Positions 34,706 to 39,943 are shown, numbered from the stretch's first letter. The stretch: DNA of 39,943 nt from Basidiobolus ranarum (GCA_040143965.1 JASJQH010006915.1:1-39943), one strand, 5' to 3'. The notes: a model not told the origin generated them from the letters alone. Numbers and translations: made by a program.

Positions 34706-36907
34706 ATGACCTCAACGACCAAACAGTTAACCAAATGGCTTTGTCTCTCTACGCGTATCAACATTTCAACAGGAGCCTTGAAACAACACATACTCAAAGG
34801 ATTTCCAAGTTTACTACTACTGGGAAGGCAACACCTTCAATTTTCTCCTAGAAATCTCTCTACTTTACCACATGTACTCCTTGAAGGGCCTCAAGTTGAT
34901 GTATCCACAACGAAAGAAGCCCTCCGTGACCTTCGTAAGGGGTTGAAGCTTAATAATGTGGAACTTACTTGGACTGCTTTTCAAAGCTTAAAGTATCAAA
35001 AACTAGACAAAAATTATTTGTCACTTATACTTCGACTTTTACTCAAAGAAGATAAAAATAGCCCTCGGTTTTCCTCCAAGTATCAAGAACTCTTACTTTA
35101 CATTGAACGACATGAGCTTCAGTTTAATACTCTGCGTGACTTTACTACTCTCATCTCTTGTCACGCCGCACTTGGCAATTGGAGGCTAGCAATTGAGAAA
35201 TACTCACTGGCTGAATCAACTTGTGGGAAAGAAATGAATGTGGCATTTTTCACCAAGATGATTCATATATTTTCAAAGTTAAGTGTGAGTAAAGTATTGG
35301 AAATCAAGAACGATATGGAGTCCAAGGGGATCCTCTTGAATTGTCATACATTCAATGCTCTACTGAAAACTTCCAAAATTCACCGAGATTCTACCAGTTT
35401 AAGGAGATTTTATCAGGAGATGATGGATTCTGGAATAAGTCCAGATGTTGTTACATATAATACTTTGATATCTGCTTACTCCAAATTAGACGATATTTCT
35501 AAAGTTAATCAGATATACATGGAGATGCGAGATCGTAAAGTTTGGCCAGATAGAATAACCTTCAACACATTGATCAAGGCATTTGCCAACAAATCCGAAA
35601 TAGACCGGGCTATGGAGCTTTATCGTATTATGCAGCGCAGAGGGGTGGTCCCTGATGCGGTCACCTACAATTCATTGATAGATACATTCATGCGTCAAAA
35701 GAATTACGATGCTTCCATGGGGATTTACAAGTCGATGATCAAACGCGGCGTTCAGCCAACCGTGGTTACCTACACAATCCTGATCAATGGGTTTATCAAG
35801 AACTCTGACTTCACTCGCGTTAATCAACTGTACGGAGAGATGTCAAAGTGTGGAGTCACGCCCAACGTCATCACATATAGTACACTAATCAATGGGTTTA
35901 TCCAAAGAGACCAAATACACATGGCCAATCTGATATATCAAGATATGTTGAAACGTCAAATCTATCCAGACACCGTGGTGTTCACCAATCTTATCCATGG
36001 ATACGTTAGAAATTGCAAGATGACCAAAGCCATGAAGATATTTCGGGACATGATCCACCTCAACTGTCCACCTTCCATCGTCACTTACAGCATACTTATC
36101 GACGGCTTCGCAAAATCGTACGACATGAAACAAGCAATTGATCTGTACAAAACACTGTTGACCACAGATCTTCGTCCAACCGCCATTACCCTGAATACGC
36201 TGATCTTTGGCTACTCGAAAGTTCGGAATGTCCAAGGTGCCTTTGAAATATTCGAAGAATTCCCGAAATACAACTTGAAGGCCGACGTGGTTACGTACAA
36301 TATCTTGATGGAGACATGCTTCCGTAGTAATCGAGTAGACAAAGGATTCAAACTTTATCAAGAGCTACTCGAGAAAGGCATCCAACCAAGTACATTCACT
36401 TACGCAGTCTTAATGAACCATTATAATTTCACTGGACAAACACAAAAGCTAATTGATCTATGGGAACATGCAAAGTCAAGATATCCAAAAAAAGAACTCA
36501 CCGCATTGGTCTCCGTTTTGATCGATTCTTGCGGATTTAATAGAGACCTAAGTTCCTTAGAAATCACTTGGGAATCATTAAACAAGGAAGGTATCCCATT
36601 GAATGAAAACAACTATAATTCTTATCTGGAAGCTCTGTGCCGACATAAAGCGTTCCCAAGAGCTATCGAGGTTTTCCGAAAGTTGGGTGATCATGGAGTC
36701 CAACCCTCGGTCAAAACATGCAAAGTGTTAATTCACTCACTCAGAGCGAATAGAAGGTTTGGTGACCTACTTCAAGTCTATCACTACCTAGAAGACTCCT
36801 ATCCTTCTCTTTTTCAACTGATCAATCCACTGCCACCAAAGCAAGAGACTGTTGATGATGGCACCTATGCTTACTTGGAATCTATCCTAGGCCAAAGAGA
36901 CGGATAA
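34706..36907 (+). CDS. P-type pentatricopeptide repeat protein, 733 aa, intronless, likely mitochondrial
   Basis: About 11 contiguous ~35-aa repeats (e.g. VVTYNTLISAYSKLDDISKVNQIYMEMRDRKVWPD) and a basic presequence-like N-terminus; no E/DYW or SMR domain visible. Confidence 0.93.
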   Translation: MTSTTKQLTKWLCLSTRINISTGALKQHILKGFPSLLLLGRQHLQFSPRNLSTLPHVLLEGPQVDVSTTKEALRDLRKGLKLNNVELTWTAFQSLKYQKLDKNYLSLILRLLLKEDKNSPRFSSKYQELLLYIERHELQFNTLRDFTTLISCHAALGNWRLAIEKYSLAESTCGKEMNVAFFTKMIHIFSKLSVSKVLEIKNDMESKGILLNCHTFNALLKTSKIHRDSTSLRRFYQEMMDSGISPDVVTYNTLISAYSKLDDISKVNQIYMEMRDRKVWPDRITFNTLIKAFANKSEIDRAMELYRIMQRRGVVPDAVTYNSLIDTFMRQKNYDASMGIYKSMIKRGVQPTVVTYTILINGFIKNSDFTRVNQLYGEMSKCGVTPNVITYSTLINGFIQRDQIHMANLIYQDMLKRQIYPDTVVFTNLIHGYVRNCKMTKAMKIFRDMIHLNCPPSIVTYSILIDGFAKSYDMKQAIDLYKTLLTTDLRPTAITLNTLIFGYSKVRNVQGAFEIFEEFPKYNLKADVVTYNILMETCFRSNRVDKGFKLYQELLEKGIQPSTFTYAVLMNHYNFTGQTQKLIDLWEHAKSRYPKKELTALVSVLIDSCGFNRDLSSLEITWESLNKEGIPLNENNYNSYLEALCRHKAFPRAIEVFRKLGDHGVQPSVKTCKVLIHSLRANRRFGDLLQVYHYLEDSYPSLFQLINPLPPKQETVDDGTYAYLESILGQRDG

Positions 36908-37618: not shown

Positions 37619-39943
37619 CTAGACAAGGTGTGGATATTCCTTTTGTATATATCTCATCACCTCCTGTACATCCTCAACTCTACCCTGTCTCTCAAGTGGT
37701 GATACTAATGTGCGGACGGTCTTTGCGCTAGGCTGGATTTGGTCTTCCTTTAATTCCTTAAGGAACACTCTCTTGGCTTCGTCAAAGAACCCTAGCCGAC
37801 AATAAGCCTCGATGCAAGAATTATATGTGTTTTCGGCGATCTTTGAAGGATAATCAGCTTTAAGTTTTGCCCAAGTGGATGTCAGTACCTTTTCATCACC
37901 ACAAAATCCACATGCGTCAAGTAGTAATGACATGGAGGCGTGTAAGGACTCGGCTGGGAACTGAGATTTAGTTTGATCCCAAATATTAAACACTTGGGAT
38001 AGCTCTTGATTACGGGAATAATGTCCCATTAGAATGGAGTAGGTATGCGAGGTGGGTGGAATATTGGCTTCCTGCATCTTAGCATACCAAGACATCCCTT
38101 CTTCCACTTTCCCTGCTTTAAGATAGCCATCTATGACTGTATCATAAGTGACAGAGTTGGGGGCAATTCCTTTCGTCGCCATATCCTTAAACACACCAAT
38201 CGCCTTTTCCATGTCTTCTACCATTGTGTACCCATGTATCAGAGTGCTATAAGTGACAACGTTTGGACGAACATGATTGTCAATCATCTTCTGATAAATC
38301 TCAAGAGCTTTGGGGATATCAGACATCTTCACATATCCGTCAACAAGGGAATTATAGGTATTTATATTGGGTTGAAGTCCTCGATCTTGCATCTTTCGTA
38401 CTATCAAAATCGCAGCATCCAATTGAGTATTCTTCGCCAAACCAGATATAAGAGTGTTGAATGTGGGGACATCGGGGACAAAACCTCGTTTTAACATATC
38501 TTCGTATATCTCATTTGCTTGATCGATTGCTCCATGCATGGCGTACCCATGAATCATAATACTATAAGTACGATTATCAGGGAGTAGTTTGCGATCGAAC
38601 ATTTTCTTCCAAGTTTGTTTGACTTGCTCGAAGCTCGAATCGGTAGTGAAGTACACCTGAAGAAGTGAGTTAAAGGTCGTGACATCCGGAGCAACACCCT
38701 TCCTTAGCATATCCTGGAACAGTTGACGGGGTTTCTTAAAGTCACCATGCTGAAAATGTCCGTGAATAAGGATGTTAAAGGTGCGAGCACTAAGCCTCAC
38801 TTTGTGGCTCACCATTTCATCGTAAATCTTCATAGCCTTGGTAAGGTCGGAACCTTTGATAAATGAGGATATTAAGGTATTGTAGGTCACGAGATCAGGG
38901 GAAATCCGTTTGCTCCTCATCTCATTGTACAGCGATAGCACCTTTTCGTGGGCCCCAGAATGCGAAAACAAGTTGATCAATGTGGAGTAAGTGAAAAGGT
39001 CGGGGGTGATTTTGGACTGGAGCATGTCGTTGTAAATCGTATTAGCCATAGGGAAGTCGCCTTGTTTTGTATAGGCACTAATCAGGGTATTGTAAACTGA
39101 GATCTCAGCAGGAACATTCTCTTTTTTCATATCCAGATAGACTTCCTTTGCCTTTCCCAAATTCGCTTCCTTGACACAATTGTGGATCAGGGTGTTGTAA
39201 GTGCTTTGGTTAGGAATTAGTCCAAACTTCTTGATGCTTTGATATATATCAAGAGCTTGAGGCAGTTGCGACACGCGAGCATAAGCTCCGATTAGAATAT
39301 TGAATGTAGTCACATCGGGAGGAAGCTTCTGCATTTGCATTTGACGATACAGCTCCTGGACTTTGATGATGTCTCTCTTAGCTGAATGGCCGGACAACAT
39401 CGTGTTGAATGTGACTATGTCTGGATTTATTTTAGCCTTAACCATATCTTGATACATAGCAACGGCCCTATTCATATCGCCACTCCGAATGTATAAACTC
39501 ATGAGTATATTGTATGTATAAAGGTCGGGGTTGATTGTGTGAGAGCGCATCTCGTTGTACAACAGGGAAGCTTTATGTGTTTGTAGGTTGTTACAATACC
39601 ACTTGATGAAGGTGAAGTAGGTGTTAGGAGTTGGAGTGATATTCCTAGATTTGAGTTCACGTTGCCACTCCTCTATTTGACGAGCATTCAATGACTTTGT
39701 GTGGTAATGACTGACCACCAAAGTTTCATAATGAGAAGCTGTAGGTTTGATACCATGTTTAAGCATTTCGGTAAATATGGAGTATATCCTCTTAGTATCA
39801 CGTTGCTTTGCATACACCTTAAGAAGTGCGTCATAGACGTCAGCATTAGGACTCAACCCCGCTTTGATCATCTCCGTTTTCAATTCCAAAGCCTCCTTAG
39901 AGTTTCGTTTTCCAAGTATGGTTATAAGATCCGCATAAGCTTT
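37619..39943 (-). CDS. P-type pentatricopeptide repeat protein, 5'-truncated by window edge, intronless in the visible part
   Basis: About 18 tandem PPR repeats (e.g. VVTYSTLIHGYTMVEDMEKAIGVFKDMATKGIAPN). The frame stays open from 39943 (KAYADLITILGKRNSKEALELK). Confidence 0.93.
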   Translation of the reverse strand, partial: KAYADLITILGKRNSKEALELKTEMIKAGLSPNADVYDALLKVYAKQRDTKRIYSIFTEMLKHGIKPTASHYETLVVSHYHTKSLNARQIEEWQRELKSRNITPTPNTYFTFIKWYCNNLQTHKASLLYNEMRSHTINPDLYTYNILMSLYIRSGDMNRAVAMYQDMVKAKINPDIVTFNTMLSGHSAKRDIIKVQELYRQMQMQKLPPDVTTFNILIGAYARVSQLPQALDIYQSIKKFGLIPNQSTYNTLIHNCVKEANLGKAKEVYLDMKKENVPAEISVYNTLISAYTKQGDFPMANTIYNDMLQSKITPDLFTYSTLINLFSHSGAHEKVLSLYNEMRSKRISPDLVTYNTLISSFIKGSDLTKAMKIYDEMVSHKVRLSARTFNILIHGHFQHGDFKKPRQLFQDMLRKGVAPDVTTFNSLLQVYFTTDSSFEQVKQTWKKMFDRKLLPDNRTYSIMIHGYAMHGAIDQANEIYEDMLKRGFVPDVPTFNTLISGLAKNTQLDAAILIVRKMQDRGLQPNINTYNSLVDGYVKMSDIPKALEIYQKMIDNHVRPNVVTYSTLIHGYTMVEDMEKAIGVFKDMATKGIAPNSVTYDTVIDGYLKAGKVEEGMSWYAKMQEANIPPTSHTYSILMGHYSRNQELSQVFNIWDQTKSQFPAESLHASMSLLLDACGFCGDEKVLTSTWAKLKADYPSKIAENTYNSCIEAYCRLGFFDEAKRVFLKELKEDQIQPSAKTVRTLVSPLERQGRVEDVQEVMRYIQKEYPHLV

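What the first reader, a model, noticed from the sequence alone, without database searches (positions are those of the whole stretch)
34706..39943. Convergent intronless paralogous PPR pair with a shared C-terminal cap
Seen: both genes lack introns over more than 2.2 kb, although every other gene here has them. They share a distinctive C-terminus (LIDSCGF..W..NENNYNSYLEALCR..QPSVKT versus LLDACGF..W..AENTYNSCIEAYCR..QPSAKT). Known: yeast PPRs are few and degenerate, whereas long regular intronless arrays typify the plant expansion. Inference: a fungal PPR family expanded by retroposition or local inverted duplication, forming a modular mitochondrial RNA-binding system; the cap may be an unnamed domain. 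No DYW deaminase domain is visible.
Basis: partly seen in the sequence, partly recalled or inferred. Interest (0 to 1): 0.7.

Follow-up and report, generated by a model that had tools for sequence, protein, structure and literature searches.

The report
Two neighbouring fungal PPR genes
These are two ordinary single-exon genes for pentatricopeptide-repeat (PPR) RNA-binding proteins in a Basidiobolus-like fungus, and their shared "cap" is four more degenerate PPR repeats that mark a PPR subfamily of early-diverging fungi, multiplied in Basidiobolus.

Summary
Gene A (34706-36907, +, 733 aa, complete) and gene B (37619-39943, -, at least 774 aa, 5' end off the window) are convergent, uninterrupted, all-PPR ORFs. 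At least six neighbouring genes are split by introns.

- **The cap is PPR.** It continues the 35-residue register. AlphaFold2 gives four more helix pairs in both proteins, and Foldseek superposes 204 columns on designer PPR arrays (TM 0.76). Pfam, PDB and the ESM Atlas find only PPR.
- **It is still a real signature.** A cap profile picks out about 40 cluster representatives with a full-length match at the extreme C-terminus. They come from Basidiobolus (about 15 lineages), Glomeromycota, Mucoromycota, Entomophthora and a chytrid. Plant PPR arrays score far lower.
- **A and B are old paralogues (31% identical).** Gene A has a 69%-identical B. meristosporus orthologue; gene B has none detectable. 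The tree does not make them sisters, but an AU test does not exclude it (p 0.19).
- **Plant transfer is unsupported, and retroposition could not be tested.**

RNA-specifying positions are conserved between orthologues (51 of 54 against 630 of 891, p 2e-5), and the N-termini look like presequences. This points to sequence-specific mitochondrial RNA binding. It is a known kind of protein with a modestly new family description.

The parts
34706..36907 (+). Gene A: complete single-exon CDS, 733 aa, P-class PPR protein
   Evidence: ORF. Pfam PPR_2 375 bits in 11 stretches. A 69%-identical, colinear 726-aa B. meristosporus orthologue, P0002.
34706..34882 (+). Gene A residues 1-59: presequence-like N-terminus
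   Evidence: No D or E in the first 59 residues. The first 60 residues hold 7 K/R and 13 S/T. Only 38% identical to the orthologue over residues 1-60. Targeting is inferred and was not tested.
35348..36397 (+). Gene A residues 215-564: ten canonical 35-residue PPR units in unbroken register
   Evidence: Register print-out. Each unit scores 48-58 bits against the seed HMM, which was built from these same units. Positions 5 and 35 are identical to the orthologue in 19 of 20 cases.
36398..36823 (+). Gene A residues 565-706: the 'cap', four degenerate PPR units, the family's C-terminal signature
   Evidence: Register 565/601/636/671. Unit 637-669 matches the canonical-repeat HMM. AlphaFold2 gives helix pairs through to about residue 706. 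Foldseek best match is dPPR, TM 0.76. The cap profile finds about 40 C-terminal full-length matches.
36824..36904 (+). Gene A residues 707-733: short tail specific to this orthologue pair
   Evidence: 89% identical to P0002, yet absent from the paralogues. The model shows low pLDDT and then one short helix.
36908..37618 (.). Convergent intergenic region, 711 bp, 34% GC, presumably holding both 3' ends
   Evidence: Coordinates. Composition and AATAAA/TTTATT words. Transcript ends are not known.
37619..39943 (-). Gene B: P-class PPR protein, 774 codons open to the window edge (5' end missing)
   Evidence: ORF. Pfam PPR_2 605 bits in 17 stretches. The best relatives are only 28-29% identical (P0162, P0160).
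38045..39838 (-). Gene B residues 36-633: about 17 PPR units (15 of 35 residues, one of 36, one of 37)
   Evidence: Seed-HMM hits and register.
37622..38044 (-). Gene B residues 634-774: the same four-unit C-terminal module
   Evidence: 37% identical to gene A's cap. 203.6 bits on the cap profile, of which it is a training member. AlphaFold2 of residues 564-774 gives 12 helices in six pairs, pLDDT 85.7.

Best explanation
Genes A and B are two single-exon nuclear genes of a Basidiobolus-like fungus that encode P-class pentatricopeptide-repeat proteins. Each has a basic N-terminus free of acidic residues (probably a mitochondrial presequence; seen for gene A, while gene B's N-terminus lies off the window). 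Next comes an array of canonical 35-residue repeats (10 in A, about 17 in B), whose residues 5 and 35 would read a specific single-stranded RNA, one base per repeat. Last is a conserved C-terminal module of four degenerate PPR units. The module closes the solenoid. Because it is the best-conserved part across paralogues and phyla, it probably also provides a function common to the family, such as docking to a shared partner. The two genes are old paralogues within a PPR subfamily found in early-diverging fungi and multiplied to about 15 lineages in Basidiobolus. They most likely act as transcript-specific stabilisers or translation activators of different mitochondrial RNAs, as shown experimentally for yeast PPR proteins. 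Shown here: the gene structures, the PPR nature of the cap, the family and its range, the age of the paralogy, and conservation of the code positions. Inferred: mitochondrial location, RNA binding, transcript specificity and the cap's role.
For: ORFs and PPR content. Ten repeats in exact 35-residue register, with the cap continuing that register. Cap units match an HMM built only from the canonical repeats (A 637-669 at iE 4.5e-4; B 634-654 and 706-740). AlphaFold2 models of both C-termini (pLDDT 83.5 and 85.7) show unbroken helix pairs. Foldseek: dPPR 5i9g_C at E 5e-10, TM 0.76, 204 columns, 2.6 A. Pfam on the six caps: only PPR families recur, with PPR and PPR_2 each in 5 of 6. A PDB profile search finds PPR chains. 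The Atlas's nearest clusters are all PPR. Family: the profile search gave 8535 hits, and per-domain rescoring of the 297 proteins held gave about 40 full-length C-terminal caps at 55-226 bits, against 44 bits or less for plant arrays. Named members are from B. meristosporus, B. ranarum, eight Glomeromycota genera, Calcarisporiella, Endogone, Entomophthora and Gaertneriomyces. The cap is more conserved than the array in 13 of 17 comparisons with gene A. Tree: A pairs with P0002 at SH-aLRT 99, and B stands alone. Code positions are identical between orthologues in 51 of 54 cases against 630 of 891 other repeat positions, Fisher p 2.3e-5. They differ between A and B: by my comparison of the code pairs printed, in the repeat pairing, 2 of 10 aligned repeats share a pair. 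Gene A has no acidic residue in its first 59 residues, and 7 of 11 relatives have none in the first 49 or more. The fungal paradigm of transcript-specific mitochondrial PPR factors comes from the abstracts of PMC3185421 and PMC11630760.
Against: There is no direct evidence of expression, localisation or RNA binding. The 5/35 code table I used is recalled, not taken from a tool. Position 5 is also fairly constrained for structural reasons, which weakens the conservation test. Some PPR proteins are ribosomal or assembly proteins rather than sequence readers, and weak matches to such chains exist. Four of the 11 relatives checked have an early acidic residue, at positions 9-15. The family count is a lower bound, because only the best 150 of 8535 hits could be seen. 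The tree is a quick search on 218 columns, with 18 of 38 inner branches unresolved.
Confidence: 0.75

Rival explanations
1. One reading: the pair is the product of retroposition or a local inverted duplication, and the cap is a new non-PPR domain.
For: Both genes lack introns while their neighbours have them. The two are adjacent and inverted. With perhaps 15-20 such genes among some 16,000 (a gene number I recall, not a tool result), chance adjacency is unlikely. The AU test does not reject A + P0002 + B as one clade (p 0.189).
Against: A and B are only 31% identical, against 69% for A and its orthologue, so any duplication predates the split from B. meristosporus. The free tree does not join them (lnL 14.4 better when apart). 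By BLAST score gene A's nearest paralogue is P0014, and gene B's are P0162 and P0160. The cap is PPR by register, profile, two structure models, Foldseek, Pfam, PDB and the Atlas. Retroposition leaves no testable trace here.
Confidence: 0.25
2. The genes came from plants, or another PPR-rich lineage, by horizontal transfer.
For: Apart from Basidiobolus proteins, nearly all named hits among the best full-length matches are land-plant P-class PPRs, E down to 1e-161. The arrays are as regular as plant ones, and the genes are intronless like most plant PPR genes (that last point is recalled).
Against: Identity to plant proteins is only 21-30%, the generic PPR level. Plants dominate the databases. 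The C-terminal signature is found in five early-diverging fungal groups and not in plant arrays, which score 44 bits or less against 55-226. GC content of the two genes (0.38-0.42) matches the rest of the window.
Confidence: 0.03
3. The proteins are structural or assembly PPR proteins, either mitoribosomal subunits of the mS39 or rPPR kind or a CIA84-like complex I assembly factor, rather than sequence-specific RNA readers.
For: The cap profile aligns over positions 5-140 to the C-terminal part of CIA84 (7zkp_C residues 673-804 of 852, E 1.5e-5). Foldseek lists mitoribosomal PPR proteins and 7zkq_C.
Against: The CIA84 match is 27-28 bits, weaker than the matches to generic PPR arrays, also for the widely conserved member P0194. 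Code positions vary between repeats but are fixed between orthologues. About 15 diverged paralogues fit many targets better than one structural role.
Confidence: 0.12

Closest known systems
Land-plant P-class PPR proteins (PPR10; hits named At5g39710-like)
   Same: Uninterrupted arrays of canonical 35-residue units with N/T/S at position 5 and D/N/S/T at position 35. No catalytic domain. Single-exon genes. Best sequence and structure matches.
   Different: Fungal host. Only 21-30% identity. The conserved four-unit C-terminal module is not matched at family level by plant arrays, which score 44 bits or less.
Mitochondrial PPR proteins of yeasts (S. pombe Ppr1-Ppr8; C. albicans Ppr4, 7, 11, 13 and Aep3; S. 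cerevisiae Pet309, recalled)
   Same: Nuclear-encoded fungal PPR proteins, roughly one or two dozen per genome. Transcript-specific control of mitochondrial mRNAs (abstracts of PMC3185421 and PMC11630760). This is the functional model adopted here.
   Different: No orthology was found or tested with their sequences. The weak Pfam matches to ATP13, RPM2 and Mtf2 have few or no stretches passing on their own.
E1/E2 motifs of plant PLS-class PPR editing factors
   Same: By analogy only (recalled): degenerate PPR-like helix pairs at the C-terminus, conserved across many paralogues whose upstream repeats differ, and thought to serve a common function.
   Different: No sequence relation was seen. 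No PLS triplets, since the units are 35-37 residues long, and no DYW deaminase.
Complex I assembly factor CIA84 (PDB 7zkp/7zkq)
   Same: A fungal mitochondrial PPR-type protein whose C-terminal part aligns with nearly the whole cap profile in one stretch.
   Different: Only 27-28 bits, below the generic PPR matches. Not treated as a relative.

Membership tests
PPR superfamily (Pfam PF01535 / PF13041) | Tandem ~35-residue helix-turn-helix units matching the PPR profiles above the curated cut-off | tested here: met
   PPR_2 scores 375 and 605 bits against a cut-off of 30, with 11 and 17 stretches.
P-class PPR | All units about 35 residues, with no alternating P-L-S triplets | tested here: met
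   Gene A has ten units of exactly 35 residues, then units of 36, 35 and 35. Gene B's units are 35-37 residues.
P-class PPR | No E, E+ or DYW C-terminal domain | tested here: met
   No PF14432 or other catalytic family in either protein. The C-terminal 140 residues match only PPR families.
PPR superfamily | Right-handed alpha-solenoid of helix pairs superposable on solved PPR arrays | tested here: met
   Models at pLDDT 83.5 and 85.7. For gene A's model, Foldseek gives dPPR 5i9g_C at TM 0.76, 204 columns and 2.6 A.
PPR superfamily | Sequence-specific binding of single-stranded organellar RNA through residues 5 and 35 | not testable with these tools
   Indirect only: code positions are identical in 51 of 54 cases between orthologues against 630 of 891 other positions.
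Fungal mitochondrial PPR regulators | Import into mitochondria | not testable with these tools
   Presequence-like N-terminus of gene A, with no D or E in 59 residues and 7 K/R in the first 60. No targeting predictor or experiment was available.
Early-diverging-fungal 'capped' PPR subfamily (defined here) | One full-length match (at least 125 of 146 positions) to the cap profile within 60 residues of the C-terminus | tested here: met
   Gene A scores 226 bits and gene B 204 bits, though both are training members. Independent members score 55-192 bits.
CIA84 complex I assembly factor | Specific sequence similarity above the generic PPR level | tested here: not met
   27-28 bits, below the matches to designer and plant PPRs.

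The most novel reading that the evidence does not exclude
The four-unit C-terminal module is a dedicated docking surface. It would couple a set of about 15 transcript-specific PPR readers to one shared mitochondrial partner, such as the mitoribosome or a common effector. That would be a fungal counterpart of the plant arrangement in which a PPR array is joined to a conserved C-terminal extension. The module is ancestral to fungi, kept in early-diverging phyla and multiplied in Basidiobolus. Because the repeats are canonical, the targets could be predicted from the 5/35 code. This would make it the first fungal PPR system with readable specificity.
Probability: 0.15. Interest if true: 0.55.

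Novelty: new member of a known kind. Interest (0 to 1): 0.3.

Why it matters
In itself this is an ordinary pair of PPR genes. The wider result is modest but useful. Regular, plant-like P-class arrays are not confined to plants and protists; they occur across early-diverging fungi, so the degenerate repeats of yeasts may be a derived state. These fungal proteins share a C-terminal signature that has no Pfam model of its own, and I found no paper describing it. Because the repeats are canonical, Basidiobolus could be a fungal system in which PPR targets are predicted from sequence and then tested.

Tried and rejected
- **Word-seeded search with the cap alone** found only gene A itself and P0002. 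That method is too insensitive, so I replaced it with the exhaustive profile search.
- **Word-seeded search with gene B** gave mostly plant PPRs plus unnamed records and one 27%-identical B. ranarum protein (P0133). The search is limited to 8000 candidates, so on its own it is no proof that an orthologue is absent.
- **CIA84 lead**: 27-28 bits, below generic PPR matches. Dropped.
- **Metagenome scan for DNA of cap-bearing relatives**, meant to check their introns: 48 pattern matches, none confirmed.
- **Own-genome search** and **sequencing runs** are not available for this window. Paralogue counts in this genome, mtDNA targets, expression and transcript ends are therefore all untested.
- **Intron status from Logan-derived relatives.** Single-ORF relatives such as P0201 (733 aa on a 2271-base contig) cannot be used, because such contigs may be assembled transcripts.
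- **Earlier scan notes** held nothing on this genome's PPR genes. The one note returned concerns a diatom PPR-methyltransferase and has no bearing here.
- **Literature.** 'Basidiobolus' with 'pentatricopeptide' gave 0 papers. Two wider searches combining PPR terms with names of early-diverging fungi listed no paper containing the PPR term among the 15 and 12 shown. These searches cover only the held library.
- **Fifth orthologue pair.** crashed on a division by zero at P0165/P0170, which had no repeat passing my filter. The pooled test uses the four pairs printed before the crash.
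Full report
**1. What is there**

The window is eukaryotic, about 33-46% GC, and no genome is held for it. Gene A's best hit is a Basidiobolus meristosporus protein, 69% identical over its full length. In the tree, A sits as far from that protein as B. ranarum proteins sit from their B. meristosporus partners. The organism is therefore a Basidiobolus or a close relative.

Gene A (34706-36907, +) is a complete 733-codon ORF. Gene B (37619-39943, -) is open for 774 codons up to the window edge. 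The two converge across 711 bp. Pfam finds only PPR-type families in both, at very high scores, and no DYW or other catalytic domain. They are 31% identical over 599 residues, through to the C-terminus.

**2. Introns**

Gene A aligns from its first residue (MTSTTKQ) to the end with the 726-aa orthologue, so its single ORF is the whole coding sequence.

Six other genes in the window have a Pfam domain that starts in one ORF and continues in the next: PAF-AH, a Zn2Cys6 factor, an NRPS-like C-A-T-R gene, Bap31, RNase PH and Oxa1. At about 4675-4738 (-), the Zn2Cys6 gene shows a textbook intron, with GTAATT, TACTAAC and CTGTAG.

However, 'every other gene' was verified for six genes only. The missing 5' part of gene B is unknown.

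**3. The cap is PPR**

- **Register.** In gene A, residues 215-564 are ten units of exactly 35 residues without a single indel. The next units start at 565, 601, 636 and 671, so they stay in register.
- **Canonical-repeat HMM.** An HMM built only from the ten canonical units recognises A 637-669, B 634-654 and B 706-740.
- **Structure.** AlphaFold2 of A 495-733 (pLDDT 83.5) and B 564-774 (pLDDT 85.7), each from a single sequence, gives six consecutive helix pairs: two canonical and four in the cap. In A these are followed by a low-confidence tail.
- **Fold comparison.** Foldseek aligns 204 columns of the A model to designer PPR arrays (5i9g_C: E 5e-10, TM 0.76, 2.6 A). All strong matches are PPR proteins.
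- **Other libraries.** Pfam scans of six caps give recurring hits only to PPR families, with PPR and PPR_2 each in 5 of 6. The cap profile matches PPR chains in the PDB. The ESM Atlas returns only PPR clusters for residues 565-733, with TM 0.69-0.78.

The 'unnamed domain' reading is not supported.

**4. The cap is still a family signature**

Four other Basidiobolus PPR proteins seen in the first searches end the same way, and one (P0096) does not.

A profile of six caps was run against 1.84 billion representatives. It gave 8535 hits at E 0.001 or better, most through several stretches inside PPR arrays.

I then rescored by best single domain all 297 proteins held at that point. About 40 representatives match at least 125 of the 146 profile positions within 60 residues of their C-terminus, at 55-226 bits. 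Plant-type arrays reach 44 bits or less.

Names were obtained for 30 representatives, plus the proteins already named:
- **Basidiobolus:** B. meristosporus (at least 12 proteins) and B. ranarum (6 proteins).
- **Glomeromycota:** Funneliformis, Ambispora, Geosiphon, Cetraspora/Racocetra, Entrophospora, Acaulospora and Diversispora.
- **Other groups:** Calcarisporiella and Endogone (Mucoromycota), Entomophthora muscae, and the chytrid Gaertneriomyces.
- **Unnamed:** Four more tree rows (P0286, P0247, P0280, P0213) and the left-out P0220, P0222 and P0179 were never looked up.

Only the best 150 hits could be seen, so both the range and the counts are lower bounds. Dikarya cannot be excluded.

Across 41 distinct family rows, residues such as W586, D607, W622, N635, E642, L644, A653, P667, K670, L679 and P700 (gene A numbering) are kept in 80% or more. 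Compared with gene A, the cap is more conserved than the canonical array in 13 of 17 family members. For members from other phyla the figures are 29-37% against 19-25%.

**5. Relationship of A and B**

I built a tree of 44 rows from the cap plus the two preceding repeats (218 columns; IQ-TREE LG+G4, quick search, SH-aLRT only). The rows were all full-length cap matches of 50 bits or more, plus P0171, P0280, P0213 and four cluster members. Hits covering only part of the profile and the low-scoring plant-type rows were left out.

Results:
- Gene A joins P0002 with support 99.
- Four B. ranarum/B. meristosporus pairs join with support 99-100 and similar branch lengths.
- Gene B stands alone. Its nearest row is P0162, at 39% identity.
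- About 15 Basidiobolus lineages can be counted.
- One Basidiobolus lineage (P0194/P0299) sits with the Glomeromycota, Entomophthora, chytrid and Mucoromycota members.
- 18 of 38 inner branches are unresolved.

AU tests:
- Holding A + P0002 + B together costs 14.4 lnL units, p 0.19, so it is not rejected.
- Holding the 19 other Basidiobolus rows together is as good as the free tree (p 0.53). This fits an expansion within Basidiobolus but does not prove it.

No protein closer than 29% overall to gene B exists among the cap-bearing representatives. Gene B's own cap was in the profile, so a B. meristosporus orthologue should have been found if it were annotated. A and B are therefore old paralogues. 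An ancient local inverted duplication remains possible; a recent one is excluded.

**6. Likely function**

- **Code conservation.** Positions 5 and 35 of the canonical repeats differ from repeat to repeat, yet are identical between A and its orthologue in 19 of 20 cases, against 242 of 330 other positions. Pooled over the four orthologue pairs with usable repeats, the figures are 51 of 54 against 630 of 891, one-sided Fisher p 2.3e-5. Without the gene A pair they are 31 of 32 against 363 of 528, p 1.4e-4.
- **Predicted targets.** With the usual code table, which I recall and did not take from any tool, gene A would read about UUU-Y-A-G-A-n-U-C. Gene B would read a different and longer string. 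By my own comparison of the code pairs printed, in the repeat pairing, only 2 of 10 aligned repeats share a pair.
- **N-terminus.** Gene A has no acidic residue in its first 59 residues, and the first 60 hold 7 K/R and 13 S/T. This region is the least conserved part of the protein (38% identity). Of 11 relatives checked, 7 likewise have no acidic residue in the first 49 or more residues, and 4 have one at positions 9-15.
- **Precedent.** Fungal PPR proteins studied so far are mitochondrial and often act on single transcripts (abstracts of PMC3185421 and PMC11630760).

From this I infer that A and B are mitochondrial, sequence-specific RNA-binding proteins with different targets. I also infer that the shared module caps the solenoid and probably serves a common partner. 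None of these steps was tested directly.

**7. Rivals**

- **Plant origin.** Support is only that plants dominate the hit lists at the generic 21-30% identity. The fungal-wide signature and the ordinary composition speak against it.
- **A structural or assembly role of the CIA84 or mitoribosomal kind.** This rests on weak matches.
- **Retroposition.** It could not be addressed without DNA of relatives.

**8. Verdict**

These are new members of a known kind, P-class PPR proteins. The useful addition is a description of a C-terminal signature, its range in early-diverging fungi and its multiplication in Basidiobolus. I found none of this in print with the searches.

Noticed in passing
window 7904-12317 (+): An NRPS-like gene split over at least four ORFs: Condensation, AMP-binding, AMP-binding_C, PP-binding and a terminal NAD_binding_4 reductase domain. 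From memory, Basidiobolus is reported to carry many secondary-metabolite genes. The origin of this one was not examined.
   Followed up: no
window 3252-5833 (-): A Zn2Cys6 / Fungal_trans transcription factor gene next to the NRPS-like gene, with a canonical short intron at about 4675-4738 carrying a TACTAAC branch site. It may be a cluster regulator.
   Followed up: partly
window 36824-36904 (+), gene A residues 707-733: A short tail after the cap is 89% identical between gene A and its B. meristosporus orthologue, more than any other part of the protein, yet it is absent from every paralogue. It may be an orthologue-specific peptide motif.
   Followed up: partly
window 27282-28239 (+): An Oxa1-type (60KD_IMP) mitochondrial insertase gene fragment with a presequence-like start, MYLSRVPQLRRAWLG. 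It is another nuclear gene for mitochondrial biogenesis, about 7 kb from the PPR pair.
   Followed up: no
window 15970-17346 (+): A 458-codon ORF with a cysteine-rich Zn-cluster-like stretch and a weak PAS_3 match. The stretch between the cysteine motifs may be an unspliced in-frame intron. The gene model is undecided.
   Followed up: no
P0194 and P0299 (B. meristosporus): Two 580-aa cap-bearing proteins on different contigs fall in one 90% cluster and are identical over the region used for the tree. This is either a very recent duplicate or two haplotypes in that assembly.
   Followed up: no
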